Part shown: positions 1 through 62,687 of the stretch, in pieces | Layout: the number at the start of each line of letters is the position of its first letter | Numbering within the stretch: position 1 is the stretch's first letter | NCBI GenBank assembly: GCA_964016885.1 | Contig: OZ024758.1 | Coordinates: forward strand, 29,388,001 to 29,452,000 | DNA: 64,000 nt | Source of the DNA: Eledone cirrhosa | Taxonomy: Eukaryota | Direction: 5' to 3' | Notes under the pieces: generated by a model | Told to the model about the DNA's origin: nothing | What the model saw: only the letters and a program-made list of their open reading frames with translations | The model's database searches: none | Translations under genes and position numbers: made by a program

Positions 1-676
1 TTCACAGACAGTTCAACCTCTTGTTCGCAGACAGTTCAACCTCTTGTTCGCAGACAGTTCAACCTCTTGTTCGCAGACAGTTCAACCTCTTGTTCGCAGA
101 CAGTTCAACCTTTTGTTCGCAGACAGTTCAACCTCTTGTTCGCAGACAGTTCAACCTCTTGTTCGCAGACAGTTCAACCTCTTGTTCGCAGACAGTTCAA
201 CCTCTTGTTCGCAGACAGTTCAACCTCTTGTTCGCAGACAGTTCAACCTCTTGTTCGCAGACAGTTCAACCTCTTGTTCGCAGACAGTTCAACCTCTTGT
301 TCGCAGACAGTTCAACCTCTTGTTCGCAGACAGTTCAACCTCTTGTTCACAGACAGTTCAACCTCTTGTTCACAGACAGTTCAACCTCTTGTTCACAGAC
401 AGTTCAACCTCTTGTTCGCAGACAGTTCAACCTCTTGTTCGCAGACAGTTCAACCTCTTGTTCGCAGACAGTTCAACCTCTTGTTCGCAGACAGTTCAAC
501 CTTTTGTTCGCAGACAGTTCAACCTCTTGTTCGCAGACAGTTCAACCTCTTGTTCACAGACAGTTCAACCTCTTGTTCACAGACAGTTCAACCTCTTGTT
601 CGCAGACAGTTCAACCTTTTGTTCACAGACAGTTCAACCTCTTGTTCGCAGACAGTTCAACCTTTTGTTCACAGAC
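1..676. repeat. 23-bp minisatellite (TTCGCAGACAGTTCAACCTCTTG)n, about 29 copies, truncated by the window edge, in a UPB1 intron
   Basis: Direct reading; only two variable positions (G/A and C/T). It explains the three repetitive ORFs at 21-878. Confidence 0.97.
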
Positions 677-699
677 ATACTATTTTCTCTCGCTGCTGA

Positions 700-5296: not shown

Positions 5297-5393
5297 CAGG
5301 GTGCCCCCAAAAAATGTATACACAATATACCTGTACAGGCAATATTTATTAGAATGCTATTGCAGTGTGTATACATTTTTTGGGGACACCCTG
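5297..5393. mobile_element. Short Tc1/mariner-like MITE (hairpin)
   Basis: TIRs CAGGGTG.CCCCAAAAAATGTATACAC and its reverse complement. Confidence 0.75.
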
Positions 5394-8125: not shown

Positions 8126-8939
8126 AGTTCCACACATCAACAGACATCTTTGTCTCTAATTTCATGGCATTTAGAAGATGGGAAATAAATCTTCCCTGGA
8201 TAGGATGCCAGGTAAAGTTGCCCTGCTGTATACCAGGTAATGATTTAGAAAACTTCTCTGGAAGATCAAGATGGAGATTTGGAAATCTCAAACAACTTCA
8301 ATAGTAAAAGCAAAAAACACTTTATTTATGAATATGTATGTGTAAAGGCGCATGGCTTAGTGGTTGAAGCATTGAGCTTGCAATCGAGAGGTTGTGAGTT
8401 CAATTCTCGGACCTGGTGATGCGTTGTGTCCTTGAGCAAGACACTTTATTTCATGTTGCTCCAGTTTACTCAGCTGTAGAAATGAGTTGCGATGTCACTG
8501 GTGTCAAACTGTATCGGTCATTACCCTTGGACAACATCGGTGGCGTGGAGAGAGGAGAGTGGTATGCATGAGCGACTACTGGTCTTCCACAAACAACCTT
8601 ATCCAGAGGGGAACTTGCTAGGTGTAAATCCAGTGGTCATTCGTGACCGAAGGGGGTCTTTAACTTTTTTTTTTATGTGTGTGGATAGCCAATTTCTTCT
8701 AGAGCTGGAGAGAAAAAAGATATAAAGGAAAAATTGACCCCAAAAGGATGAAAGGCAAAGTTGAACTTGGTGGGATTTGAACTCTGAATGTAAAGAGCTG
8801 AAAGGAATACTGCAAAGCCTTCTATCTGATGTTCTAATGACTGCCTATTCACTGCCTTATGAGTATGAAGAGTGAAACTGGGGAAGACTCAACAACAGCA
8901 ATGTATATAAGATATCTAGACAGAAATTTATAGACTCAC

Positions 8940-9111
8940 TTGTACAGTAATTGAAGCAGAGGTACTCTCTACAATCTGATTTTGGATGGCACCGATCCGA
9001 ACAAGACGTGGAGACCGGACTTCTTCTGTTCGAGCATTAAATATATAACCTTTAATTTCAAAATTCTTATCTTTAGCAAATTCTTCGGCTTCATTTGAAA
9101 TTTTCATTTTT
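8940..9111 (-). CDS. UPB1: Beta-ureidopropionase, coding exon 2 (R-KMKISNEAEEFAKDKNFEIKGYIFNARTEEVRSPRLVRIGAIQNQIVESTSASITVQ)
   Basis: tttcAG acceptor, GTGAGT donor, 172 nt, frame continuous with exon 1. Carries the UPB1 motif R.PR.V..G..QN. Confidence 0.95.
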
Positions 9112-9613: not shown

Positions 9614-9931
9614 TATATCCAAAATTAAGATAAAATAAATTAAATGAATTTAATCTAAATTGTGGGTGTCATGCCATAATGGCAAACGCCATATCACCTG
9701 GGAATTAAGCTCTAAGATAAATCTGAGCATTTTATAATAACTAGAAATCTCCTGTGATTATTCATGTATATTCATATATATATATATATGTTAATCAATT
9801 TCTAGTTATTATAAAATGCTCAGATTTATCTTAGAGCTTAATTCCCAGGTGATATGGCGCTTGCCATTATGGCATGACACCCACAATTTCGATTTAAATT
9901 AAATTCATTTAATTTATTTTATCTTAATTTT

Positions 9932-11583: not shown

Positions 11584-11680
11584 CATCACTATATATTTCA
11601 TTATATATATTTCGGAGATGCAAACATTTATGTGTAACATAAATCAGAGCATGTCCTCATCAGATAAAATACATGAGATG
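11584..11680 (-). ncRNA. Minimal type-I hammerhead ribozyme (sense to UPB1 intron 1)
   Basis: Minus strand reads catctcatgtattttat-CTGATGA-ggacatgc...gcatctcc-GAAA-tatata-TA-atgaaatatatagtgatg. Stems I and II pair, loop III is palindromic, cleavage triplet AUA. Confidence 0.85.
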
Positions 11681-15992: not shown

Positions 15993-17500
15993 GAAATTTT
16001 TGTGTAAAGTGCTCAGGTGCACTACAACTCGTCAAAGGTGCATGTATAGTACATAGAATAATACACAAATGTCAGGGAAGTGAATAGTGTATGAGTCATG
16101 ATATACATGTGTGTATGTGTATGGAGGGGGAACATTAGGTGTAGTGTTGGCGAATCTCAGGAAGCATGGAGGCCTTAAAGGATGCAGTGTCTCGACAGCT
16201 AACAACTGATGAGGGCAGTTTGTTCCATGCTTCAGCAACTCTGAGCGTGAAAAAATGTTTCCGAAAGTCATGGGAACTGTGCTGTTTTCTGACTTTGTGG
16301 GCATGTCCACGTGTGTTAGACACATGGAAATCGAAAAGGTACTCAGGGTTGTTGTTGCAAGATGGTTAACAATTTTGTGGGTGTTTACCAAGTCAGTTGC
16401 CAGGTGTCGGAGCTTCAATGTATCCATGCCCAGGGAAGCAAGGCGCTCAGAGTATGGTAGATGCCTGATGGTGGGTTGCACGTCTCTGAACAGTTTCCAG
16501 GCGGTCAATGTTCTGAGCAAGATAGTGGTTCCAGATTGGTGATGCAAATTCTAAGTGTGGCCACACCATAGCCATGTACAGCCTTAAATAGATAGCTGAA
16601 GAGCGGCTGACAAAGGTCTTGCTGAGTGATGCTAAGACACCCTCAGCCCTCTTGACAATTTTAGAGACGTGCTTCGGCCAAATCAAATCGCTGCTGACCG
16701 TAATGCCCAGGTCACGTTCACAAGAAGACTTCTTGATATTAGTGCTGTGAAGGGAGTATGTGGACGCTGGGTTTTTACTCCCAAAATGCATAGCGGTGCA
16801 CTTGTCCACAGCTAGCTTGTGTTGCCAGTCTGTGATCCATTGTTGCATTGTGTCCAGGTCAGACTGCAAGCAAGATCTATAGTGTTCAGGATCTGTCCAT
16901 TTTATCTCAAGGTACAGCTTGAGGTCGTCTGCGTACTTTAGTACTGTGGCATTCTTTAAGTTGGCATCTATGTCATTAATATATACCACAAACAAAAGGG
17001 GGCCAAGAACAGATCCCTGTGGTACACCAGATGACATCTCATATGGTGAGGAATGCTGTCCCAGAACCGTGACTACCTCTCTTCGACTGAGAATGAAGGA
17101 CTTCAAACAGTTAAAAAGATCATCCTTCACACCCAGAGAGTTTTGCCATAAGCCTTTTGTGTGGCACAAAATTGAAAGCTTTCGCAAAGTCAAGGTAAAC
17201 AACATCCACCCATGAGCCGCCATCAGTGATCCGGGTGATGTCTTCAAGAAACTCGATTTCTGGCAAGACGGACTGCTGCAGTCTCCCAAATTGCACTTTT
17301 GGGATGTTTTTTCCGCTTACGTGGCACCGATGCTTCACATGCTGTCCATATTGAGCTCAGGATGTTCTGGAGTACAGTGTTGACATCTCCAGAGTCGTAA
17401 AACTCAAGCCAGTTTGGCCGTTGCAACTCGGTGCAGTAACAGTTCCAGTCTGCTTTATTCCAGTCAAAGTGAGCAGTTTGGAGATGGTTGTGGTTCTTGA
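15985..17500 (-). mobile_element. CR1/L2-group LINE, decayed RT and 3' end
   Basis: VYLDFAKAF, SGVPQGSVLGPLLF, YADD, PHLEFASPIW, TRGH, RV...WNKLP; several frameshifts. Confidence 0.92.
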
Positions 17501-19389: not shown

Positions 19390-22300
19390 TGCTTATAAAT
19401 ATTATTTTATCCAATTCCTAATACAATCGTCTATTAGAATCAAACAGGTGAGGGTAAAGAAATTGTTGTTTTGTTTTTTTTAGGTAGATAATAACTAAAA
19501 TAAATAAGTATTTAGTAAGTGAATACTTGAGAAGCTTCTTGACAAACTTTGCGATAAGACTCTTTCGAGCGTCTCCTCCTTACTGAATTATTTTCTTATC
19601 GAAGTTGCTCTTTTTATCGTTGATTAATTCGAAACTATGGAGAGTTAACTTGCATAAACTTTCTAAAATATATCAGAACATTGAAAGAGAAAGCAGTAAC
19701 TAACTGCAGATGAGGTCCAATTAATTGTATCGTTCAATAAAATAATTTCTATTATAAATGATGTATGTTTGCAGCGGAGTTCTTTCCCTCCTCGTGTAAT
19801 CTGTTATATATAATGCTACATATATTTTTCGCGGTGGATTGGCAGTATCGGTAGAACGTCAGACGTCATGCTTTGACGCATAGAGTTACGTCCCTTTACG
19901 GTCTGAGTTCAAATCCCACCGAGGTTAACTTTGCCTTTTATCCTTACGGGATAGATAAAATAAAGTACCAGTAATGTACTGAGTAATTGCTGGCCTTGTG
20001 CCAAAATATATATATTTTTCGCTTTCTGAAATTTCTCCGGATCCTTATATTTGAAACAGTTGATTACTGCAAAAAGTTTTTTTTTTTTTTTCGAAAGTTC
20101 ATTTTTTTTCACTCCCACCCTCCACACTCAGACAATGTTACCCTAACCGCGAGCTCAGCAAACTAACTTCTCTCTAACCCTTTAAAAAATTCTAAATTTC
20201 AGTTAGGGAGTCCCTAACTGAAATTTAGAATTTTTTAAATTATAGAATTTTAATCTAGAAGGTTTCAAATGCAGGAATCCGAAGAAATTTTCGAGAGAAA
20301 AAAAACAAAAACTTACGGGAGTGAGGGAGGAGGGGATGGGGGACATATGGAGAAAAGGAAGTTGCAAATTGAAATTTCGAAAATAATTTTTTTTCACTAT
20401 CATAACCTGTAATGTTTCAAACATAGGATCCCCTCCACCTAAAAAAAAAAAACAGTTGCAGAGGAGAGGTAAAGATCTGAAGCTGTAATATATCATCATC
20501 ATCATCACTTTAGGTTAGTTTTTTATGCTGGCATGGGTTGGATGAGTTGTTACTATCCTTCTAGGTCGAAGGAATACAGCTCACTCAAATACTTTTGCTT
20601 TTTGGTATGGATGTCCTTCCAAATGCCAACCGTTTTACAAAATGTACAGGCTACAATTTATTATGTCTCCAGCACTAGAAAGATTGTTATCACCATGACG
20701 TGACTGAAGTCGTTCTTGACCCTTTTCAATACAGCTTCTACAACTGGATGCCTTTCCTAACTCCAGCTACATTGTAGTCTATGCTGGGTGTATTTTATCA
20801 TGACACCTGCAATATGATGGTTGTTATCTCTTGGACACGACTGAAGTCACCTCTCTATTGATTTTGGTATGGTTTCTACATCTGGATACCTCTCCTAATA
20901 TCAACTACATTGCAGTGTGTACTGGGTGCATTTTATCAAGGCACTAACACTAGGGATGTTTTTAAGCCCTTGACATGACCGAAGAGAAGAGTCTTCTCTA
21001 CCACATGCCAAATAATTTATAGAATGTATTGAGTCCATTTTAACTATAAAATGGACTCAATACATTCTCTAAATTAGCAACACTAGAGTGGCCACTTGTT
21101 CCAGGGAAAACCTGATCAAGAGTGGAATAGAAGAGAAGTGTAGTGGGGGAGACAGTACTGGGATGGTATAGGAGTCAGAGGCATAACTAGGGTATAACAA
21201 GTATGGTACGTGCCAGGGGTTCCACATGAAGGGGGCCCCACTTGGACTAGGAGCCCGTTCTATTAAAGTCAAATAAGCCTCGCCGGCGACTGAAAAAAGA
21301 AACTCCTTCAGTTGTATGCTCTGTCTCTGATTACCAGGAGTGAGGACACTATGGTGGCTGGATCAGTAAACCATTATATAAATTGTTAAACCTCCATAGG
21401 TGAAAATACAGTGTTGGGCAGGGGCACAATTTCACTGCTTGCCATAGGGGCCATTTTCCTCTGGAGGGAGTGAATGGAAGGAGTGGGAAGAGGTTACATG
21501 GTTGCTGGTAGGAGACTGAATAGGCAAGAGTAGTAGAAATGTAATGAGGGGAGAGTAAGGGATGGGAATGAACATGGCTGCCTGACAGTGGTAGATGTCA
21601 ACCATGAGTTACAGGGTTTGAATGCAGAGTCTAGTCTAAAGTCTGTCTCGAGCTCGGAGGCTCATCAGGCCGGTGCTTATCCCAGTTTCCATGCCATTAA
21701 GTGAGAGTACAATAACCCCCCCCCCCCCCCTGGACAGGACACCAGTCCATTGCAGGGTTAAACTCCCAGCTATTGCTGGTACTAATTTTCAGTTGAGTAT
21801 ACCGGAGCAACATGAAATGAAATGTTTTTGAATGCAGACACAAGGAACAAATATCTGTAGCGACTAGTGCCACCTTGCTCAGGGAGAAAAAACTAATTGG
21901 AGTTACTTCCCGTTGAATTCTAGAGGATTCCTTGAACTTCTGGTCTAGGGATTATAAAGGAGGGAGAAAAGAGACAACTTGGCTTATTTGGCGACGGTTC
22001 TCGGACAATTCACTCATGAGCGAGTTTGTTAACCTTATTATATCTGTATCGAATTAAATTAGTGGTTGGTCTGCAGTGGCGTTTACCAAAGTAAATAACC
22101 CTGTGACTAATTCCCAAAATATCGAACAATCAAACGACTTTGCCTTCATAGTGAAAGAAGAATATATATTTAGAGGAAAATTATTCTGAGTCAGATAAAC
22201 CATAGAGTAGAAAATAATATTAACATAGATAGGATAAGAAGTCTCTCAATTAATAATTTTCCTAATTGAAGGTCTTGTATAAATATAAGAATAGAAATCA

Positions 22301-23469: not shown

Positions 23470-25660
23470 TCTGATACTGATACTGATAAGAAGATAGCCT
23501 GGAAGTGTCACTACGAGAGACTATTAAATGAGGAGAATAAATGGGAAAAAGACAGTCTGCCCCAAATCGATCCAATAGAAGGACCAGCAGTGCAAGTTAA
23601 AGGTAGTATAATAAGTAAGGCAATCAAAGATATGAAGACAGGCAAGGCAGCTGGGCCTTCGGAGATAGTTGCTGAGATGTTGAAGGCATCTGGAATGGTG
23701 GGACATACTATGGTCACCTGTATAGTTAACCAAGTAATACAGAACAGGGTCATACCGAAAGACTGGCATAGCAGCATCATCATTAACTTCTACAAGGGCA
23801 AAGGGGATGCTCTAGATAGGAGAAACTATAGAGGCATTAAGTTAGTTGACCAGGTCATGAAGGTCACAGAAAGAGTTATAGCGTAACTAATCAGAGCGAA
23901 TTGATCTAGATGAAATGCAGTTTGGGTTTGTGTCAGGTAAAAGTACCACAGACGCTCTTTTCCTTGTACGACAACTACAAGAGAAGTACCTAGCTAAAAG
24001 TAAACCCCTCTACTTAGCTTTTGTAGACCTGGAGAAAGCCTTTGGCAGAGTCCCCCGCTCCATTATCTGGTGGACTCTTAGAAAACTAGGTGTAGATGAA
24101 TGGCTTGTGAGAGCTATACAAGCTATGTATAATGAAACAGTCAGTAAGGTTAGAATTAACAATGAATATTGTGAAGAATTTAGTGTAAAAGTTGGCGTTC
24201 ATCAAGGCTCAGTCCTTAGCCCCCTCCTATTTATTATTGCCCTTCAGGCTATGACAGAGGAGTTCAAGACCGGCTGCCCATGGGAACTCCTATACGAAGA
24301 TGATCTAATGCTCATAGCTGAATCAATGGCTGAACTAGAGAAGAAATTCCAAACATGGAAACATGGCCTAGAATCAAAAGTCCTTAAAGTTAACTTTTCT
24401 AAGACTAAAGTTCTAGTTTGTAGAAAGGAAAATAGGGCACAGGTGCTCTCAGGGAAATGGCCATGCTCAGTGTGTAGGAAAGGAGTAGGCAGAAATTCCA
24501 TTTTATGTCCCAAATGCAAAGTATGGGTACATAAAAGATGTAGTGGGATCACAGGTAAACTATCTAAGAACGTAAACTTTATATGTGGCCAATGCTCAGG
24601 TGCAATAAGTAGCAAGTGTCCACAGGATACTAGCTCCTTCTATTGCCCAGATAGTTCTATAGAAATAGTAGACACTTTCCGTTACCTGGGTGACGAAATC
24701 AGCAGTGGTGGAGGATGTTCTGAAAGTACGGTAGCTAGAGTCAGAACGGGATGGAAAAAGTTCAGAGAGCTTATACTGCTGCTGGCCGCTAAAGGGTTCT
24801 CTCTAAATATGAAAGGCAGATTGCATGATGCCTGTATACGAACAGCAATGCTACATGGCAGTGAGACATGGGCATTGCGTGCAGAGAACCTGCTCAGACT
24901 GGAAAGGAATGAAGCATGCATGCTCCGTTGAATGTGTAATAGTAATATACGTGAACGGCAAAGCATGAACTAAGTGAGAAATTAGGAATAAGAGGGATCA
25001 GATGCTGTTTACTTGAGAGAAGACTACTTTGGTATGGTCACGTGATGCGCATGAAAGACGACAGCTGCATAAAAAGTGCAGGGCGATCAAAATTGATGGT
25101 AGTTACGGAGTAGGTAGACCCAGAAAAACCTGGGACGATCTGATAAATTCCACTCTGACACACTTGCACCTCTCTAAGACAATGTCACTGGACCGAGATC
25201 TTTGGCGCTATGCAGTAATACAGAAGACCCGCCTTGCCTATGTACAAAGCGAAACCTACACCCCAATCCACTACCCCTACCCTATCCTCCCACTCCCACC
25301 AACACCACCCTCTCTCTGTAAAGTTGGTACCACAACATCCAGTCCAAATAAATGAGATAATGAGATCAAGATCGTGTAGGTGTCACGACAAAAAGAAAGA
25401 AAAAAAAAAAACAAAAAAAAACTACTCACAGTCCACGCTGTAATGTGGGCGTGTAGGTAACACGGTAAAAAGTTCCCAGTTCCACACTGTAAATGTGGTT
25501 GGTGTTAGGAAGGGCATCCAACCATAGAAAACCTGCCAGATAGTCCTATACGAGCGAGACACGGTCACCCAACCAACCTTGCCTCAAGTGGGACAACTCC
25601 CATCTAACCCATGGTAGCGTGGAAGATGGACGTTAAACGATGATGATGATGATGATGATG
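23470..25660 (+). mobile_element. RTE-clade LINE: 5'-truncated RT region with stops/frameshifts, 3' UTR and (GAT)n tail
   Basis: KTGKAAGP, NYRGIKL, QFGF..GKSTTDA, FVDLEKAF, GVHQGSVLSPLLF, Y(E)DD, PHD-like insert, GRPRKTW. Confidence 0.95.
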
Positions 25661-40979: not shown

Positions 40980-41327
40980 CGTGAACTGTTTGATGGTCAA
41001 GCGGATCAAGAAAGAATATATCGGATATCGATGAGGCAACCTCGTCGGAGATATTTTATATCTCAACAATCACGTCATACGGAGCAATTGCAACAGGAAA
41101 TTCCATCTAGTTCTCGCCCGTCCAGTTCTCGTTCAACCAGTTCTCACCCATCTCCCACCATAGATATTTCGAACTCCTCCAATGATGTCGTCAGATTTAC
41201 TTACAACGGAAAAGGAGATAATGACTGCTTAATTTGCCGAGACGACTTTAGACTAGAGGAAGATGTTTCAATCCTCTCTGGTTGTTTCCATAGATACCAT
41301 CCTGCCTGCATCGATGAATGGTTAAAA
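40980..41327 (+). CDS. RING-H2 finger protein, main exon (Ser-rich linker + CLIC...CFHRYHPACIDEWLK)
   Basis: ttcttcAG acceptor, AAA|GTAAGT donor, 348 nt. Holds the first six Zn ligands of a C3H2C3 RING and the conserved Trp. Confidence 0.85.
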
Positions 41328-42244
41328 GTAAGTGATTTTCTAGTTTTTTTTTTAATGATATCAGTCATTTTGAATTTATATCTGAACGGAGCACAGCCCC
41401 TCTACGACCGCGCCCTAGGCCCCAATCATTCTCCCCCTCCCCATTCTTCTGTGACACTAGAGTCCTTGCCATTCCCTCCCCTTTCGGTTTTTATCTTTTT
41501 TCTTTATATTTTCCTATTTTCCATTCTATTCTTCTCAATCTAAATTTTCTTTTTTCTTTTTCTATTAAACTATATTTACATGATATATTCCATAAATAAA
41601 ATTAATGGATAGCACACGCTTGAACCTATAACTGTTAGATTGTAGAGCTGTTTTTCACGAGGGTTCTATACTTTAAAGAATAAATTGCGACTGGTCGGGT
41701 TTGGTTTATGAACGTTTTCAACTTCGATAGTAATATACCAAACAACCAAAATATCTTTCAAGAGGAAAATTTGATACCAGGCCGCCATGAAAAGGATAGT
41801 TTTTATTTTATTATAATCCTTCTCGGTGGCCTCACGAGCTGGGTTAGTGCATTCTCAATAATGAACCACTTCATTCCATTGCTAAGAACTTTTTATTCTC
41901 TTTTTTTGTAAATATCATACTGAAAAACACTTTGTTTTCGCTCTTAACATGGTGGACACCTAAATGTATTCAGACATACTTTGCAACATAGTTACGTCCC
42001 TTTACATTCTGAGTTCAAATCCCGCTGAGGTTAGCTTTGCCTTTCATTCTTGTGGGTCGATAAAATAAAGTACCAGTAACGTACTGGGGTCGATTTAATC
42101 GACTTGCCCCGCCAAAAATTGTTTGCCATATATCTAAATCAGAAACCTTTATTCTGATTGCCGTTAAACAACGAAATTATGTCACCCTGTATATGGTATG
42201 TATGGGTCATAGAATAAATGAATGTAATTTAACATTTTCTTCAG

Positions 42245-42286
42245 CAAAGACGGAGCTGCCCAGTTTGTCGTTGTGAGGTGGGATAA
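42245..42286 (+). CDS. RING-H2 finger protein, last exon (QRRSCPVCRCEVG*)
   Basis: ttttcttcAG acceptor; supplies the CPVCR that completes the RING; TAA stop. Confidence 0.85.
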   Translation, partial: QRRSCPVCRCEVG

Positions 42287-42409
42287 ACAATTGTCCGAAT
42301 ACCAGTGAAAATGTTTTACCAGTTTTAACTCCCACGAACTATTAATGATTTTGTTTTCGATGCATTTTTGTAAATAGAAACATTTTATGTTATTTTATAT
42401 TTCCCTGTA

Positions 42410-50851: not shown

Positions 50852-51213
50852 GACTATATATATATATATATAAGCAAAGAGTTATTTAATTTCTTGGTTA
50901 TTCAAGAAATTTAATTATAACAGATTCGAAGCACTCTACAGCTTTCTTCTGGAGTATAATATCAATGGTATTAATAAATGGAAACTATACTTTATAAAAC
51001 CATATTTATTTTATTATATAATTTTCTGCTTTTGGTAGAAGGCCAGCAATTATCTCAGTGCATTACTGGTACGTTATTTTTACCCTATAAGGATGAAAGG
51101 CAAAGTTAAATATGGTTTTATAAAGTATAGTTTCCATTTATTAATATCATTAATATATATATATATATATATATATATACGATATTAAATAAATGGAAAC
51201 TATATTTATAAAA

Positions 51214-51294
51214 CCATATTTATTTCATTATATATATTTCAGGGATATCATATTAACAATATGTTATGCCTTCCTCAGACAAAATACAATATAG
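51214..51294 (-). ncRNA. Minimal type-I hammerhead ribozyme (inverted copy of 51436-51516)
   Basis: Reverse complement of the plus-strand copy, within the 185-bp palindrome arm. Confidence 0.85.
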
Positions 51295-51435
51295 ACAGTT
51301 TTATAGATAAATAGATTTGACATACCGTTCAACATCGACTTGTATTTGAAAAAGTTGATTTGACTGCCAAATCAACTTTTTCAAATACAAGTCGATGTTG
51401 AACGGTATGTCAAATCTATTTATCTATAAAACTGT

Positions 51436-51516
51436 CTATATTGTATTTTGTCTGAGGAAGGCATAACATATTGTTAATATGATATCCCTGAAATATATAT
51501 AATGAAATAAATATGG
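51436..51516 (+). ncRNA. Minimal type-I hammerhead ribozyme
   Basis: ctatattgtattttgt-CTGAGGA(51452-58)-aggcataacatattgttaatatgatatccct-GAAA(51490-93)-tatata-TA-atgaaataaatatgg. Predicted cleavage after 51501. Confidence 0.87.
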
Positions 51517-52091
51517 TTTTATAAATATAGTTTCCATTTATTTAATATCGTAAATATACTCCAAATACTTGTTGAGTGCTTTTATATCAGTTATAAATAT
51601 TTACTAGTTGTAACCCAACAATTTAAATATAACTTTCCATATATATATATATATATATATATATGCGTGTGTATATGTGTATGTACATACGTGTGTGTCT
51701 GTAGATATATGTGTATGATATGTATATATGTGTATGTATATATATATATATACATATGTGTGTGTATGTAGATATGTATATGTGTATATGTGTGTATATA
51801 TGTGTATGTATATATATATATGTATGTGTATATATGTAATGTGCGTATATATATGAGTGTGAAAGTGCATGTATATGTTTATGTATGTGTATGTATATAT
51901 ATATATATATGAGTGTATATATGTATGTATATGCGTGTGTATATATATGTGTATGTATATATATATATATGTGTGTATATATATGTGTATGTATATGTAT
52001 ATATATGTGTATGTATATGTATATATATATATATGTGTGTATATGTGTGTGTATATGTATATATGTGTATATATATATATATGTATATGTG

Positions 52092-52631: not shown

Positions 52632-52673
<42 letters not shown>

Positions 52674-53005
52674 CTTTAACTTTGAATAACTTTGAAATGT
52701 TTTGGCCAGTATTGGCCCAGGCCATGTCTAACTTAATAGCACCACCTGGCGAAGTCTTTCAATTCAGGATTTGGGCACCATGGCCCATTCGAGAAGAGAA
52801 TTACTGTTTGCGGAGACATATCCGGGTGTGGGTGGTTTGTCCGGGATTACTTGGAGGAATTTGTCCAAAGACTTCTTGAATTTTGTGTGGTCAGTTTCTG
52901 TTTTGACGTGTCCTGGTGTGATGTTGAAGAGAGCAGGGCCGATTGAGGTGAAATAATTGTGCCGTATTGTTGTTATGAGTTGCGATTTAGATTTTTGAAT
53001 GGGAC

Positions 53006-53063
<58 letters not shown>

Positions 53064-53280: not shown

Positions 53281-53894
53281 CTTTCGCCCGACCACACCTT
53301 GAATACTGTTGTCCACTGTGGTCTCCCCACACGAAACAAAGTATCATGAAACTTGAAGCTCCTCAAAGGGCAATCACGAAAAAGATAGATGGCATGTCAG
53401 ACCTTGACTACTGGGGTCGATTGGAAAACCTGAAACTTTACTCACTCCAACGTCGCCGTGAGCGTTATATTATCTGCATGATGTGGAAAATGTTCCATCA
53501 TCACTGCCCAAATGATGTTGGCATCGCCTTCAAGATACACCCAAGGCTTGGGCCCCGTGCTATCCGTCCCATTCAAAAATCTAAATCGCAACTCATAACA
53601 ACAATACGGCACAATTATTTCACCTCAATCGGCCCTGCTCTCTTCAACATCACACCAGGACACGTCAAAACAGAAACTGACCACACAAAATTCAAGAAGT
53701 CTTTGGACAAATTCCTCCAAGTAATCCCGGACAAACCACCCACACCCGGATATGTCTCCGCAAACAGTAATTCTGTTCTCGAATGGGCCATGGTGCCCAA
53801 ATTCTGAATTGAAAGACTTCGCCAGGTGGTGCTATTAAGTTAGACATGGCCTGGGCCAATACTGGCCAAAACATTTCAAAGTTATTCAAAGTTA
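53281..53894 (+). mobile_element. CR1-group LINE 3' end with a (TTCAAAGTTA)n tail; its last 329 bp are duplicated in inverted orientation at 52677-53005
   Basis: [14 protein letters not shown]...[11 protein letters not shown]...GP.LFN..P...[13 protein letters not shown]. Confidence 0.9.
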
Positions 53895-53963
53895 TATATA
53901 CATATATATATATACATATATATATATACATATATATATATACATATACATATACATATATAC

Positions 53964-54099: not shown

Positions 54100-54138
<39 letters not shown>

Positions 54139-55566
54139 GTAAAATATTTTATAACACAAAGAAAAATTTTTTTCTGTGAAACAAGAAATTACAGAGTTGA
54201 TCACGTAAAATCATGGGTATGTCTATAATATCAACTAGAACTTGAGATGACCTTCTCTTTTTCTCTTTCTTTCCTTTTCCGGAAAGTACATATTCATGTG
54301 TATATATATACTTATATATTTCCCTATTTTTTTGAAGTTTTATCTCAGTTTTGGTACATCGACCTCAGAATTTTAAACTAAACATATGGTCATTGTTGAG
54401 CAAAATTATTTTCACACATTATATATCTGTCCCATTCATGAATATTGATATTTACATTATATTACCCAATTCTTTTGGGTAATATAATGTAGGACTTTTC
54501 ACAAAGTATACAGTTAATATTCAATTCTTTATCAATTTAGAATCTTTTCTCAAAGGCACATATACATACACCTCTTTAAAATATACCCATCTTCCTACCT
54601 TACTTCAAAGGGCATTATACACTCTATAATACTTGTTTACTCATTACCCTCTTTCTATCTTCACCTTGTAAAATCCTTCATAACATATACATTTGTTTTT
54701 TTGACGTTAGAATATTCATCCGCAATTATTATTATTTTTTCTCTCTATCATAAAACTTTTTAATCTCAATTTCATCCTTAATTTATTATTCTTTTCTCCC
54801 CATCAACGAACTCATTCTTAATACATATTAACTCTTTCTTCGCACATATTATCAATTCCTTCAATATACAAACTTTAACTTCACATTATTTTTCTCAAAT
54901 CCTTCTACACACAAACCTTAATAATTTTTTCTCTTCGTTAATTTTGAAATTGCCACGATACTTATCAACATACACCTTTTTGACGTTAGAATATTCATCC
55001 ACAATTATTATTTTTTCTCTCTATCTTCATACATAAACTCCCTTTCTTTCCTCGTAAATATTTTTCCCTTCGTTAATTTTCAAATTCTTTTAATTTATAC
55101 ATTATCTTCCAACGGTTCTCAACCTCTCTATGTAAAACAATATATCTTTTCTCAGTTATAAAAACTATCTCTTTCTCTCTATCACCCATCTCTCCCTCTC
55201 CACCTTCACTCTCATCTCTTCCCCCTTTTTTCATCCTTTCCACCCCCCTCCCTAAATAAAATATTTTTTCCTCGTACATATCTTTCCCTTCGTTAATTTT
55301 CAAATTCTTTTAATTTATACATTATCTTCCAACGGTTTTCAACCTCTCTATGTAAAACAATATATCTTCTCTCAGTTATAAAAACTATCTCTTTCTCTCT
55401 ATCACCCATCTCTCCCTCTCATCTCCTCCCCTTTTTCATCCTTTCCACCCCCACCCCCTCTCTAAATAAAATATTTTTCCCAATATCACACATCAATCTA
55501 AAACCACTTTTCATATGTTGATTTAAAACTGCACTATCCACAAGTGTTTTTTAGCCTTCATATCAT

Positions 55567-55652
55567 GTTCTCCTGTTTTATCTGATGAAAACACAAATAT
55601 TATTGCATGATGATGTTTGTTTTTGAAATGCGCATAATAAAATACATGGAAC
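55567..55652 (+). ncRNA. Minimal type-I hammerhead ribozyme
   Basis: gttctcctgttttat-CTGATGA(55582-88)-aaacacaaatattatt/gcat/gatgatgtttgttttt-GAAA(55625-28)-tgcgca-TA-ataaaatacatggaac. Palindromic TGCGCA; predicted cleavage after 55636. Confidence 0.87.
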
Positions 55653-55865
55653 TCTTTTAACCATCTTTTGATCTTATATTATGTATACTCCAGTCCTACA
55701 AACTGTGGAGTGCTTCTTATCCGATATCTGCATTGCTTTATTGTACTACAATAAAACTCACCTCCTACATATATATATATGTATGTATATATATATATAT
55801 GTATATATATGAATATATATATGTATGTATATATATATATATGTATATATATGTATATATATATG

Positions 55866-55908
<43 letters not shown>

Positions 55909-56216
55909 GTATGTATATATATATATATGTATATATATATGTATGTATATATATATATGTATATATATATGTATATATATATATGTATATATATATATGT
56001 ATATATATATGTATATATATATATGTATATATATATGTATATATATATATGTATATATATATGTATATATATATGTATGTATATATATATATGTATATAT
56101 ATATGTATATATATATATGTATATATATATGTATATATATATGTATGTATATATATATATGTATATATATATGTATATATATATGTATATATATATATGT
56201 ATATGTATATATGTAT

Positions 56217-56249
<33 letters not shown>

Positions 56250-56314
56250 AATATATGTATATATATATGTATATATATATATGTATATATATGTATATAT
56301 ATATGTATATATAT

Positions 56315-56348
<34 letters not shown>

Positions 56349-56501
56349 ATGTATATAAATATATGTATATAAATATATGCAAAAGTTTCATATAAAATTG
56401 TTGGGTTACAACAAGTAAATATTTTATAACTGATATAAAGCACTCGACAAGTTTTGGAGTAGATATACGATATTAAACAAATGGAAACTATATTTATAAA
56501 A

Positions 56502-56580
56502 CCATATTTATTTCATTATACATATTTCGGGGATACCATATTAAAAATATGGCATGCCTTCTTCAGATAAAATACAATAT
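56502..56580 (-). ncRNA. Minimal type-I hammerhead ribozyme (first stem II pair is an A.C mismatch; possibly impaired)
   Basis: Minus strand reads atattgtattttat-CTGAAGA-aggcatgccatatttttaatatggtatcccc-GAAA-tatgta-TA-atgaaataaatatgg. Confidence 0.8.
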
Positions 56581-57538
56581 ATAAACAGTTTTATAAATAA
56601 GTTTGACGTACCATAAATATTGACCAACCGTTATGTACGAAGCTGGTTTGGTAGTGAGATGTTTATAAATATTTAGTGTTAAGCACAGTTAAAAAGAAAA
56701 ACGGAGAAAAAGAAGAAATGTATGTAAAGAAAAACAGAGAGAAATAGAGAGAGATAGGGGAGAGAGAAATAGTGAGGAGGTGAAAAAAGAGAGGCAGCTT
56801 AGGCAACAGATGAATAAAAATAATAATTCATCATACAAATTGAGAGATTTAGGAGGGAGGGAGTACTGTAATTATTTAGTTATAGTGTTAAGGACAGTTG
56901 AGGAGGAGACGGAGAGAAATAAAAAATGAAGAGAAAACAGAGAGAGAGAAAGATAGAGGTGGGGGGAAAAAGAGGTAGACCAAATAATAATAATTATATA
57001 TGGGGAGGTGAGAGATATAGGAGAGAAATAAGAGAGAAATAAGAGAGAAGTAAGAGAGAAACTCGAGAGGCAAAGTTAAAACAACCGATACATAGACTTC
57101 ATTATATATAAAGAGGGAGGAGAAGAAAGAGCTATATCTAGAGAGAGGGATGATAGATTTACATCTTTACGTTATGTCCTATCAATTTGAATTATCAATT
57201 CATATGAATTGGGTAATATAATGTAAATATCAATATTCATGAATGAGACATAGATATATAATGTGTGAAAATAATTTTGCTCAACAATGACCATATGTTT
57301 AGTTTAAAATTCTGAGGTCGATGTACCAAAACTGAGATAAAACTTCAAAAAAATAGGGAAATATATAAGTATATATATACACATGCATATGTACTTTCCG
57401 GAAAAGGAAAGAAAGAGAAAAAGAGAAGGTCATCTCAAGTTCTAGTTGATATTATAGACATACCCATGATTTTACGTGATCAACTCTGTAATTTCTTGTT
57501 TCACAGAAAAAATTTTTTCTTTGTGTTATAAAATATTT

Positions 57539-57611
<73 letters not shown>

Positions 57612-58254
57612 AATAAAATATATTAATATTCTTGCCCTCACATACATGATTATTGTTCATGTATAGAATATTATGCATATCTGTAACATATCCAGAACTA
57701 TACCCACACATACATATATATATATATATATGTATGCACACATATATGTACATGGACAGATAAAATAAGCAGATAAAATATACTCTGTAATCATTCCATA
57801 TGCATATTAATACATATGGCCTTTGTACAGAGACAACCAGATATCAATATATCAGCACAGAGATATCAAAACGTTAAAAATATTTTCATCGCTCCCTAGC
57901 GTATCTCGGGCCGTAAAAAACACAGTATGCCCCCTATATCAACCACAGAAATCTACCCTTCCAATTTATCTGACAATATATTGCCAAGTTCATTAGAAGC
58001 AATCATAATCAAAAAGCAAACAAAAAACCAAAAATTAAAAATTATTCAACAAAACTTATTTAGCAGAAATCATTTAAAGGATTTAGGAGACCCTGTTGTT
58101 CTACGGATGCTCTTATATTTAGTATAGAAGTTTATCTAGCGTAAAATGTATTCAATAGATTGGGAGCATCAACATTTAAGGGTAGTTTAATTACATCATT
58201 AGTATATATTTATGAAGAAGGTTTAAAAGAAAAAGTTGAAGGAATATATAAATA

Positions 58255-58402
58255 TATGTATATATATATATGTATATATATATATATGTATATATATATA
58301 TGTATATATATATGTATATATATATATATGTATATATATATATGTATATATATTTATGTATATATATATATATATGTATATATATATGTATATATATTTA
58401 TG

Positions 58403-58433
<31 letters not shown>

Positions 58434-59191
58434 GTATATATATTTATGTATCTATATATATGTATATATATTTATGTATATATATATGTATATATATATA
58501 TGTATATATATAGATGTAGATATATTTATGTATATATATTTATGTATATATATATGTATATATATATATATGTATATATATATGTATATATATATATGTA
58601 TATATATATATGGATATATATTTATGTATATATATATGTATATATATATATGTATATATATATATGTATATATATATATGTATATATATTTATGTATATA
58701 TATTTATGTATATATATTTATGTATATATATATATGTATATATATATATGTATATATATTTATGTATATATATTTATGTATATATATTTATGTATATATA
58801 TTTATGTATATATATGTATATGTATATATATTTATGTATATATATGTATATGTATATATGTATATGTATATATATATATATGTATATATGTATATGTATA
58901 TATGTATATGTATATATATATATGTATATATATATATGTATATGTATATATATATGTATATATATATGTATATATATATGTATAGAAATATATGTACATA
59001 TGTATATGTATATATATGTATACATATATATATGTATATGTATATATATATGTATATATGTATATGTATATATGTATATGTATATATATATATGTATATA
59101 TATATATGTATATATATATATGTATATATGTATATATGTATATGTATATATATATATGTATATATATGTATATGTATATATATATATGTAT

Positions 59192-59225
<34 letters not shown>

Positions 59226-59454
59226 ATATGTATATGTATATATATATATGTATATATATATGTATATGTATATGTATATATATATATATATGTATATGTA
59301 TATATATATATGTATATATATATATGTATATGTATATATATATATGTATATATGTATATGTATATATATATATGTATATGTATATGTATATATATATATG
59401 TATATGTATATGTATATATATATATGTATATATATATATGTATATATATATATG

Positions 59455-59501
<47 letters not shown>

Positions 59502-59698
59502 GTATATATATATATGTATATATATATATATGTATATATATATATGTATATATATATATATGTATATATATATATGTATATATATGTATGTATATATATA
59601 TGTATATATATCTATGTATATATATGTATATATATATAAGTATATATATATATGTATATATATATATGTATATAAATGTATGTATATATATGTATATG

Positions 59699-59729
<31 letters not shown>

Positions 59730-59838
59730 GTATATATATGTATATATATATGTATATATGTATATATATATATGTATATATGTATATATGTATATATGTA
59801 TATATATATATATGTATATATGTATATGTATATATGTG

Positions 59839-59887
<49 letters not shown>

Positions 59888-60058
59888 GTATATATATATA
59901 TGTATATATATATATGCATATATATATACGTATATATATATATGTATATATGTATATATATATATGTATATATATGTATATGTATATATATGTATATGTA
60001 TATATATATATATGTATATATATATATGTATATATATATATGTATATATATATATATG

Positions 60059-60090
<32 letters not shown>

Positions 60091-60410
60091 TATGTATATG
60101 TGTATATGTATATGTGTATATGTATATATGTATATATATATATGTATATGTGTATATGTATATATGTATATGTATATATGTATATGTATATGTATGTGTA
60201 TATATGTATATGTATATGTATATATATATGTATATATATATGTATATATATATATGTATGTGTATATATGTATATGTATATGTATATATATATGTATATA
60301 TATATGTATATATATATATGTATATATATATATGTATGTATATATATGTATATATATATATGTATATGTATATATATATATGTATGTATATATATGTATA
60401 TATATATATG

Positions 60411-60443
<33 letters not shown>

Positions 60444-60576
60444 GTATGTATATGTATGTATATATATATGTATGTATATATATATGTATGTATATATATA
60501 CATATGTATGTATATGTATATATATATGTATATGTATATATATATATATGTATATATATGTATATGTATATATATG

Positions 60577-60607
<31 letters not shown>

Positions 60608-60648
60608 GTATATATATATGTATATATATATGTATATGTATATATATG

Positions 60649-60737
<89 letters not shown>

Positions 60738-61943
60738 GTATATATGTATATATGTATATATGTATATATATATATATGTATATATATGTATATATATATA
60801 TATGTATATATGTATATATATATATGTATATGTATATATATATATATGTATATGTATATATATATATGTATATATGTATATATATATATATATCTATATG
60901 TATATATATATATGTATATATGTATATATATGTATATATGTATATGTATATATGTATGTATATGTATGTATGTATATGTATATGTATATATATGTATATG
61001 TATATATATGTATATATATGTATATGTATATATGTATATGTATATATGTATATGTATATATGTATATATGTATATGTATATATGTATATATATATATGTA
61101 TATGTATAATATATATATATGTATATGTATATGTATATATGTATATGTATATATATGTATATATATGTATATATATATATATGTATATGTATGTATATAT
61201 ATATGTATATATATATATATGTATATGTATATATATATATGTATATATGTATATGTATATATATATATGTATATATGTATATGTATATATGTATATGTAT
61301 ATATATATATGTATATATGTATATGTATATATGTATATGTATATATATATATGTATATGTATATGTATATATATATATGTATATGTATATGTATATATAT
61401 ATATAGGTATATGTATATATATATATGTATATGTATATATATATATAGGTATATGTATGTATATATATATGTATATGTATATATATATGTATATATGTAT
61501 ATGTATATATATGTATATGTATATATATGTATATATATGTATATGTATATATGTATATGTATATATGTATATGTATATATGTATATGTATATATGTATAT
61601 ATATATATGTATATGTATATATGTATATGTATATGTATATATGTATATATATATATGTATATGTATATATATGTATATATATGTATATATATATATGTAT
61701 ATGTATGTATATATATATATGTATATGTATGTATATATATATATGTATATATATATATGTATATGTATATATATGTATATATATGTATATGTATATATAT
61801 ATATGTATATATATATATGTATATATGTATATATATGTATATATATATATGTATATATGTATATGTATATATGTATATGTATATGTATATATATATATAT
61901 GTATATATATATATGTATATATGTATATGTATATACGTATATG

Positions 61944-61974
<31 letters not shown>

Positions 61975-62155
61975 GTATATGTATATATATATATGTCTAT
62001 GTATATGTATATGTATATATATATATGTCTATGTATATATATATATATATATGTATATGTATATATATATATATGTATATGTATATATGTATATGTATAT
62101 GTATATATATATGTAATATATATGTATATATATATGTATATATATATGTATATGT
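58255..62155. repeat. ~3.9-kb (TA)n/(TATG)n microsatellite; similar tracts at 51640-52672, 53006-53280, 53895-54137, 55768-56378 and 63155-63950
   Basis: Direct reading; source of all the Tyr/Ile/Met/Cys-rich pseudo-ORFs. Confidence 0.98.
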
Positions 62156-62687
62156 TATCTACAAAGTATTAGTTATGCAGACATTCAATATTTCAATGTT
62201 ATTATCTACGAGGGAGTGGTTTTTTAATAGCAGTGAGAATTGTTGGTGGCAGTGAGCAATTAGATTCCCATCCGTTGTTTTGACATTTTTATAGAATATA
62301 TTGTTTGTCGTTGGTTATCTTTCTAAATCTATAGAAGGATTAGAGATAGTATAGATATGCATGGTTGGTTTTGTGTTTGCACTTAATTAACATTCAGACT
62401 TAAATTTTTCTTTCAAGTGTACGTATCCTTTCGCCCACGCATTTACACACAAACGTATATGTACACCTCTACAAAATACATATACTCACATACACATACT
62501 TACATGCTCATACTTACATACATATATACATGCACATGTATATATACATATATATACATATATATACATATATATATATGTACATACATACATACGCATT
62601 CATGTGTATACATTTTCATACTCAACTTATCTTTATATACACACCTATAGACACACACATATATACATACATACTCCTGTCTATGTG

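What the first reader, a model, noticed from the sequence alone, without database searches (positions are those of the whole stretch)
51178..51552. Palindrome with 185-bp arms holding two back-to-back hammerheads
Seen: the arms 51178-51362 and 51368-51552 look identical, with only ACTGC between them. Each arm holds a complete hammerhead pointing outward. The right arm continues into the family's 3' segment and a (TA)n tract; the left arm stops at (TA)n. A transcript from either strand therefore carries one sense ribozyme plus its exact antisense. It could fold as a 185-bp hairpin (self-inhibiting; a Dicer/ADAR substrate) or as the ribozyme. Established: inverted pseudo-LTR copies at 5' junctions are a known Penelope insertion product. 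Arm identity implies a recent event or gene conversion (inference).
Basis: partly seen in the sequence, partly recalled or inferred. Interest (0 to 1): 0.75.

Follow-up and report, generated by a model that had tools for sequence, protein, structure and literature searches.

The report
Fold-back stub of Penelope-like retroelement
This perfect hairpin-shaped stretch is most likely the short leftover of a recent Penelope-like jumping-gene insertion, which put two head-to-head copies of its ribozyme-bearing end into a TA repeat, an ordinary pattern already described for these elements.

Summary
The arms 51178-51362 and 51368-51552 match at 185 of 185 bases around ACTGC, and each carries an outward-pointing minimal type I hammerhead. 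Reads from four public runs show a very high-copy repeat family that thins out towards its 5' side. The turn sits on a 4-base inverted microhomology (TTTG-ACTGC-CAAA) that already belongs to the family sequence. The left arm ends where many family copies end and meet (TA)n; only the right arm keeps an 86-base tail. This is the published Penelope-like pattern: an inverted 5'-truncated copy, a one-sided tail, a (TA)n target, and paired hammerheads on opposite strands. Best mechanism (0.6): the truncated cDNA snapped back and copied itself during a recent insertion. A second, older stub of the same build lies directly to the left. Gene conversion is not needed. The regulatory reading has no support here: no RNA evidence was obtained, and tested ribozymes of this minimal kind needed a same-strand partner to cut. 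No Penelope RT or endonuclease gene was found, so membership rests on anatomy. An artefact is unlikely (0.06) but not excluded.

The parts
51178..51362 (-). Left arm: inverted, tail-less copy of the element's 3' end
   Evidence: 185/185 complementary to the right arm; ends where many family copies end on (TA)n (loose ends at the mirror position 51558)
51359..51371 (.). Turn point: 4-bp inverted microhomology TTTG/CAAA around the 5-nt loop ACTGC (51363-51367); family sequence, not filler
   Evidence: family contigs align down to 51359 and then continue in other letters (X1 2 contigs, X4 4 contigs); hairpin -0.8 kcal/mol as DNA
51368..51552 (+). Right arm: 5'-truncated direct copy of the element's 3' end (pseudo-LTR-like)
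   Evidence: 87% identical over 237 bases to the copy at 56382-56612; thousands of contigs and reads
51444..51509 (+). Minimal type I hammerhead: core CUGAGGA 51452-51458, stem II 51459-51489, GAAA 51490-51493, palindromic loop UAUAUA 51494-51499, predicted cut after 51501
   Evidence: same shape with different letters in three other copies in the window
51221..51286 (-). Mirror-image hammerhead on the other strand (core starts at 51278)
   Evidence: mirror of 51444-51509
51553..51638 (+). Tail of about 86 bases, present on the right side only; starts with a conserved hairpin TACTC...GAGTG (51557-51578)
   Evidence: the 5-pair stem is unchanged in 4 of 4 tails while the loop varies
51154..51177 (.). 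Left (TA)n target tract, shared with the neighbouring stub
   Evidence: sequence
51639..51664 (.). Right (TA)n target tract, running into a long TA/TG microsatellite
   Evidence: sequence
50872..51152 (.). Neighbouring older fold-back stub of a related subfamily: tailed copy 50872-51026 (-), about 90 bases of a dispersed repeat (51018-51109), tail-less inverted copy 51107-51152 (+)
   Evidence: arms 94.5% identical over 55 bases; 76% identical to the right arm plus tail

Best explanation
It is a heavily 5'-truncated, recent insertion of a hammerhead-bearing Penelope-like retroelement family into a (TA)n tract. Reverse transcription primed at the cut target copied the tail, the hammerhead region and a little more, then stopped near 51359. 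The cDNA 3' end folded back on the built-in TTTG/CAAA microhomology with a 5-base loop and primed copying of itself. That copy stopped before the conserved tail hairpin and was joined to (TA)n on the other side. The result is two head-to-head copies, identical from birth, with a tail on one side only. Shown: arm identity, family origin of the loop and microhomology, 5' thinning, two kinds of 3' end, (TA)n flanks. Inferred: the enzymology, the order of events, Penelope membership and the lack of function. Confidence in 'Penelope-type insertion by-product' by either priming route is about 0.82.
For: Summed contig depth in X1 rises from 8.5 thousand at 51358-68 to 0.9 million over the hammerhead and 3.6 million at 51512-22, with the same trend in X4 and X5. 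Family contigs continue 5' of 51359 in non-palindromic letters. (TA)n loose ends follow 51558 in X1 (32 contigs), X5 (3) and X21 (5290 reads), while other copies reach 51623-36. A second stub with the same head-to-head, one-tail build and a homologous short end lies next door. One X1 contig (65 nt, depth 7) spans 51332-51398 symmetrically about the same centre with 2 substitutions and 2 gaps. PMC8557442 describes the adjacent inverted 5'-truncated copy, one-sided tail and (TA)n bias. PMC3846280 reads palindromes at head-to-head junctions as self-priming. PMC4209133 reports paired minimal hammerheads 100-700 bp apart on opposite strands; here the cores are 174 bp apart.
Against: No Penelope RT or GIY-YIG match in 198 of 198 ORF segments scanned and no genome to search. 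The tail is about 86 bases, not 30-40. The microhomology is weak (-0.8 kcal/mol), and 13 of 181 arm positions offer a 4-bp stem with a 3-8 base loop, so it is only mildly unlikely by chance. PMC3846280 places self-priming on an antisense template rather than on the cDNA. None of the listed pieces shows the window's exact centre (24 listed, 5221 not shown). No target-site duplication can be read inside (TA)n.
Confidence: 0.6

Rival explanations
1. Same by-product, different priming. Both ends of the cut (TA)n target primed reverse transcription, one at the tail end and one at an internal start at the foot of the tail hairpin. The two cDNAs then annealed through TTTG/CAAA.
For: The purified anole Penelope-like protein cuts and extends both strands and starts at two sites that define the tail (PMC11167929). 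The family here has two classes of 3' end, and the short one lies at the foot of a conserved hairpin.
Against: Two independent cDNAs would rarely end within 5-13 bases of each other; a 5-base loop is what a snap-back gives (inference).
Confidence: 0.22
2. A single older copy was duplicated later by DNA repair (break in the fragile (TA)n, fold-back, rejoining), or an older pair is kept identical by arm-to-arm gene conversion.
For: Other (TA)n-flanked inverted pairs without a hammerhead lie nearby: 52640-53010/53561-53931 at 97% and 54135-54472/57206-57545 at 98.5%. The X1 centre contig could be a converted allele.
Against: The left arm stops at the family's common short end, which repair has no evident reason to respect. 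No listed arm position has a letter missing from the family in X1. A deletion in the T-run at 51377 is a common family variant (about 27% of X1 depth), so the X1 contig fits a separate copy better.
Confidence: 0.08
3. Fold-back chimera or assembly artefact.
For: The arms are perfectly identical. Library chimeras form at palindromic and inverted sequences (PMC10908179, abstract), which could also explain the depth-7 contig against a family depth of thousands. No listed piece spans the whole stretch.
Against: The mirror stops after 185 bases and both flanks are different sequence. A read fold-back would be expected to mirror the tail too (inference). The stop point matches a biological family end, and the diverged stub next door has the same build.
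Confidence: 0.06
4. A selected regulatory unit: a bidirectional hairpin that silences the family through small RNAs, attracts A-to-I editing, or switches its ribozyme on or off according to the transcription start.
For: A spanning transcript folds at -297.4 kcal/mol and blocks the ribozyme fold by 98.7; starts at 51300 or later leave it nearly free. Penelope small RNAs exist in a rotifer (PMC3846280).
Against: No coding exon was recognised nearer than the end of a RING-finger gene at about 42290. Closing helix III in one copy costs 2.9 kcal/mol, and the second hammerhead is on the other strand, so no same-strand dimer can form from this locus. One copy among a very large family would add little.
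Confidence: 0.04

Closest known systems
Insertions of endonuclease-bearing Penelope-like elements with an adjacent inverted 5'-truncated copy and a one-sided tail (PMC8557442; Pen2a_Av in PMC3846280)
   Same: Head-to-head inverted copy shorter than its partner, palindromic junction, tail on one end, AT-rich or (TA)n target, hammerhead in the repeat.
   Different: No ORF is left, so the whole insert is about 460 bases; the tail is about 86 bases rather than 30-40; no readable target-site duplication.
Minimal type I hammerheads of metazoan Penelope-like elements, including opposite-strand pairs 100-700 bp apart in Schistosoma mansoni (PMC4209133)
   Same: Conserved core, long helix II, tiny helix III with palindromic loop, mostly solo truncated copies, opposite-strand pair.
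   Different: A10.1-U11.1 instead of the highly conserved G-C; no extra base between positions 9 and 10.1; 8-bp proximal stem I; a C.C mismatch after three pairs of helix II.
PAc (Poseidon of Anolis carolinensis), the only element of this class studied in vitro in the papers read (PMC11167929)
   Same: Two 3' ends that define a tail, AT-rich target, a stem-loop near the ends.
   Different: Here the two ends are about 80 bases apart and no protein is known; the hairpin's role is untested.
Non-LTR retrozymes (bioRxiv 10.64898/2026.07.22.740005)
   Same: Non-coding, type I hammerhead, high copy number, related to Penelope pseudo-LTRs.
   Different: Retrozymes are head-to-tail tandems with a hammerhead in each unit; this is one head-to-head pair.

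Membership tests
Penelope-like elements (endonuclease-bearing) | ORF with telomerase-like RT and GIY-YIG endonuclease linked to the repeat | tested here: inconclusive
   No such match in 198 ORF segments of the window; the copy is truncated far short of where one would lie; no genome held; 11 of 11 metagenome pattern hits were 21-24 base matches only
Penelope-like elements (endonuclease-bearing) | Hammerhead motif in the terminal repeat | tested here: met
Penelope-like elements (endonuclease-bearing) | Inverted 5'-truncated copy adjoining the 5' end (head-to-head) | tested here: met
   family sequence continues 5' of 51359 elsewhere
Penelope-like elements (endonuclease-bearing) | Tail at one end only | tested here: met
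   51553-51638 on the right only; two classes of 3' end; longer than the published 30-40 bases
Penelope-like elements (endonuclease-bearing) | Frequent 5' truncation and (TA)n or AT-rich targets | tested here: met
   depth gradient and (TA)n loose ends; flanks
Penelope-like elements (endonuclease-bearing) | Target-site duplication | tested here: inconclusive
   both flanks are (TA)n
Type I hammerhead (minimal, dimer-type) | Core CUGANGA, GAAA, UH with stems I and II | tested here: met
   Core unchanged except N7 in 4 of 4 distinct copies; stem II and loop letters differ while the shape is kept
Type I hammerhead (minimal, dimer-type) | Palindromic positions 15.2-16.2 | tested here: met
   TATATA here and at 11663, TGCGCA at 55582, TATGTA (wobble) at 56566
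Type I hammerhead (minimal, dimer-type) | G10.1-C11.1 pair (highly conserved, per PMC4209133) | tested here: not met
   A-U here and at 55582, G-C at 11663, A.C at 56566
Type I hammerhead (minimal, dimer-type) | Self-cleavage | not testable with these tools
   needs an in vitro assay
Rfam hammerhead families | Covariance-model match | tested here: not met
   none at gathering score; none among 150 of 158 rows shown at E 10; only an unrelated family at E 7.3 on the arm alone
Non-LTR retrozymes | Head-to-tail tandem units, each with a hammerhead | tested here: not met
   single inverted pair; only 2 reads join a tail end to 51359 in X21
MITE or fold-back DNA transposon | The whole inverted unit is amplified as such | tested here: not met
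   depth at the centre is about a hundredfold below depth over the hammerhead in X1, and left of 51358 it is zero in X4 and X5 and near zero in X21

The most novel reading that the evidence does not exclude
The family has a built-in, repeatedly used snap-back site at 51359 and a conserved tail hairpin that fixes where the back-copy stops. It would then turn out near-identical two-hammerhead hairpin stubs by design, and these are transcribed or remobilised as a unit, with ribozyme activity set by where transcription starts. The X1 contig with the same centre but different letters, and the 2 reads that join a tail to 51359, are the only hints.
Probability: 0.07. Interest if true: 0.55.

Novelty: new member of a known kind. 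Interest (0 to 1): 0.18.

Why it matters
As it stands it is a clean, young example of a known insertion product. Its use is mechanistic: the turn point, the two ends and the tail hairpin are all readable, so a genome-wide list of this very abundant family could decide between snap-back and two-sided priming, which the papers read leave open. If such stubs are made repeatedly at one site and transcribed, they would be a ready source of double-stranded RNA against their own family.

Tried and rejected
No genome is held for this window, so copy lists, empty alleles and the autonomous partner could not be sought. Rfam gave no hammerhead match; the microRNA-precursor rows over the centre (about half their gathering score) only reflect a perfect hairpin and were rejected. 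No RNA holder listed. One metagenome pattern scan gave 11 loci, all 21-24 base matches with no further likeness. A search of the window for the family's upstream letters gave 1 match with 3 mismatches, reached by 13 of 100 shuffles. Six-frame translation of the element and its relatives gave nothing recognisable by eye. Pfam: 289 ORF segments of 55 aa or more passed a low-complexity filter; 198 were scanned (all 105 from 36000 on, the 93 of 70 aa or more before it) and 91 were not. Conservation of the core among family variants is not significant alone: 0 of 12 core positions among 35 variable positions, P 0.19 (0.09 within the ribozyme), with 6 rows hidden. Look-ups of earlier findings by sequence and by place were empty. 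A paper search for octopus, Penelope and hammerhead showed no description of this family among 4 listed; the host group was only a guess from recall and was not tested. A search on gene conversion in Penelope palindromes listed 2 papers that I did not open. Supplements were not opened; those of PMC8557442 and PMC4209133 may hold this family's parent element.

Full report
Observation. The two arms 51178-51362 and 51368-51552 are exact reverse complements over 185 of 185 bases with the loop ACTGC. Of 5 exact non-microsatellite inverted repeats with arms of 18 or more and spacers up to 60 in the window, this is the longest by far. BLAST extends the match to 51172-51558, because the six bases after the right arm differ from (TA)n at one place only. 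Zero differences in 185 bases put the arm divergence below 1.6% at 95% confidence.

The ribozyme. Each arm has a type I hammerhead pointing outwards, with the core starting at 51452 (+) and 51278 (-). Stem I has 8 pairs. Stem II has 3 pairs, a C.C mismatch, then 8 more pairs with one A.A mismatch. Helix III is one pair closing a palindromic UAUAUA, and the triplet is AUA with the cut after 51501. Three other copies in the window (56566 -, 55582 +, 11663 -) keep the core except N7. They keep the three-pair, mismatch, stem shape with different letters (one has an A.C first pair), and the loop palindrome changes as a whole to TGCGCA in one. A stricter scan found 4 hits (the two arms, 55582, 11663) against none in 100 of 100 shuffles; I set its thresholds after seeing the hits, and it misses the 56566 copy. 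Against: Rfam does not recognise it, the arm folds no better than shuffles, the first stem II pair is A-U, and closing helix III in one molecule costs 2.9 kcal/mol. PMC4209133 (parts 1-2 of 4 read) says metazoan hammerheads of this build work as dimers, that a tested single minimal motif did not cut, and that pairs on opposite strands 100-700 bp apart occur in Schistosoma.

The family. I laid 4 of 23 listed runs on 51325-51636 at 88% likeness: 4424, 719 and 84 contigs and 32,749 reads. Summed depth in X1 climbs from 8.5 thousand at 51358-68 to 0.9 million over the ribozyme and 3.6 million at 51512-22, then falls to 0.2-0.7 million in the tail. These sums are not copy numbers, but the shape fits a retroelement family that is often cut short at its 5' side. 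Contigs in X1 (2) and X4 (4) align down to 51359 and then carry on in other letters, so TTTG-ACTGC-CAAA is family sequence and the palindrome turns on a 4-base microhomology. Such stems start at 13 of 181 arm positions, and this one is worth only -0.8 kcal/mol, so it fits snap-back without proving it. (TA)n loose ends follow 51558 in X1 (32), X5 (3) and X21 (5290), while other copies reach 51623-36. The left arm therefore stops at a common family end and the right arm keeps the tail. That short end lies at the foot of a hairpin whose 5 pairs are unchanged in 4 of 4 tails while its loop varies; pairs that never vary do not prove the structure. Of 11 variable positions in the ribozyme, N7, two loop positions and five stem changes are compatible with the fold (two of them only if they occur together, which the table does not show), and three break a pair. 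No core position varies, but that alone is not significant (P 0.09-0.19).

Is the centre real, and is it young? One X1 contig of 65 bases and depth 7 covers 51332-51398, symmetric about the centre, with 2 substitutions and 2 gaps. That length and symmetry are what a perfect hairpin with a 5-base loop gives in an assembly graph of 31-base words (my inference; the letters are not printed). It is not the window's exact sequence. A one-base deletion in the T-run at 51377 is a common family variant, so I read the contig as a separate fold-back at the same point. It could also be a converted allele or a library chimera (PMC10908179, abstract only). The window's exact centre is not among the 24 pieces listed; 5221 are hidden. 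X1 holds half of the sampled words of the wider stretch, so it is probably not the source of the window. An artefact in the window is unlikely because the mirror stops after 185 bases at a biological end, with different flanks. Youth is enough to explain the identity: no listed arm position has a letter missing from the family in X1, and 1180 of 4424 contigs are 99% or more alike.

Surroundings. Directly to the left, 50872-51152 has the same build in a related subfamily: a tailed copy, about 90 bases of a dispersed repeat, and a tail-less inverted copy, with arms 94.5% alike and a homologous short end. The nearest recognised gene, a RING-finger gene on +, ends near 42290. No Penelope protein was found in 198 ORF segments; the two RVT_1 hits at 16450-17316 and 23891-24928 are 26 kb or more away and are not linked to this family.

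Mechanism. Most likely (0.6), target-primed reverse transcription in (TA)n copied the tail and ribozyme, stopped near 51359, snapped back and copied itself as far as the tail hairpin, then joined (TA)n. Two-sided priming from two start sites, as seen for the anole element (PMC11167929, parts 1-2 of 4 read), gives the same product (0.22). Later repair or conversion (0.08), artefact (0.06) and a selected regulatory hairpin (0.04) remain. On the RNA side, a transcript over both arms folds at -297.4 kcal/mol and the ribozyme fold costs 98.7 more, but only 2.3-2.8 more for starts at 51300 or later; helix III was left open in these runs. Nothing shows that the locus is transcribed.

Comparison. PMC8557442 (12 of 22 matching passages seen) describes the inverted 5'-truncated copy at the 5' end, a 30-40 base tail often at one end only, and (TA)n bias. 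PMC3846280 (11 passages seen) describes palindromes at head-to-head junctions and reads them as self-priming, though on an antisense template. The retrozyme preprint 10.64898/2026.07.22.740005 (part 1 of 5 read) defines retrozymes as tandems, which this is not. PMC6962438 (2 passages) added nothing. No supplements were opened. It works like a Penelope insertion, and five anatomical features are met. The defining protein could not be linked, so membership is likely but not shown. Six earlier AI notes from other genomes describe similar stubs; I did not check them and they are not evidence.

Verdict. Real in the assembly, well explained by a known pattern, new member of a known kind, interest 0.18.

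Noticed in passing
window 50872-51152: Second, older fold-back stub of a related hammerhead subfamily with about 90 bases of a dispersed repeat (51018-51109) between its arms; it shares the (TA)n tract with the palindrome.
   Followed up: partly
window 54135-57545: Inverted arms of about 340 bases at 98.5% identity, each flanked by (TA)n, enclose two convergent hammerhead copies of different subfamilies (55582 +, 56566 -) whose tails meet in a TA/TG tract; the upstream parts are pyrimidine-rich with internal duplications.
   Followed up: partly
window 52640-53010 and 53561-53931: Inverted 371-base arms at 97% identity with (TA)n at the outer ends and one inner end; the translation looks like the end of a LINE protein (by eye, no Pfam hit), with no hammerhead found.
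   Followed up: no
window 51557-51578 and tails at 56382-56476, 55675-55766, 50872-50966: A 5-pair stem TACTC/GAGTG is unchanged in 4 of 4 tails with a variable loop, right at the family's short 3' end; candidate start or stop signal for the reverse transcriptase.
   Followed up: partly
window 11590-11673 (-): Solo hammerhead of the same build with a G-C first pair, cut off before the tail hairpin by a (CAT)n tract.
   Followed up: partly
run X21: 21 reads show a strand-switch joint 51539 to 51558 and 12 reads show short go-back joints near 51550, so other small rearrangements exist at the family's short end.
   Followed up: no
window 9687-9859, 20181-20239, 21021-21068, 5305-5385: Four smaller exact inverted repeats (arms 62, 29, 22 and 20 bases) without a hammerhead.
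   Followed up: no
window 8931-9107 (-): Exon of a beta-ureidopropionase gene (E 9e-10 to solved structures).
   Followed up: partly
window 41220-41328 and about 42244-42286 (+): Last two coding exons of a RING-finger gene, split inside the finger.
   Followed up: partly
window 1-677 and 58200-62200: A 69-base tandem array at the window start and about 4 kb of TA/TG microsatellite near the end.
   Followed up: no
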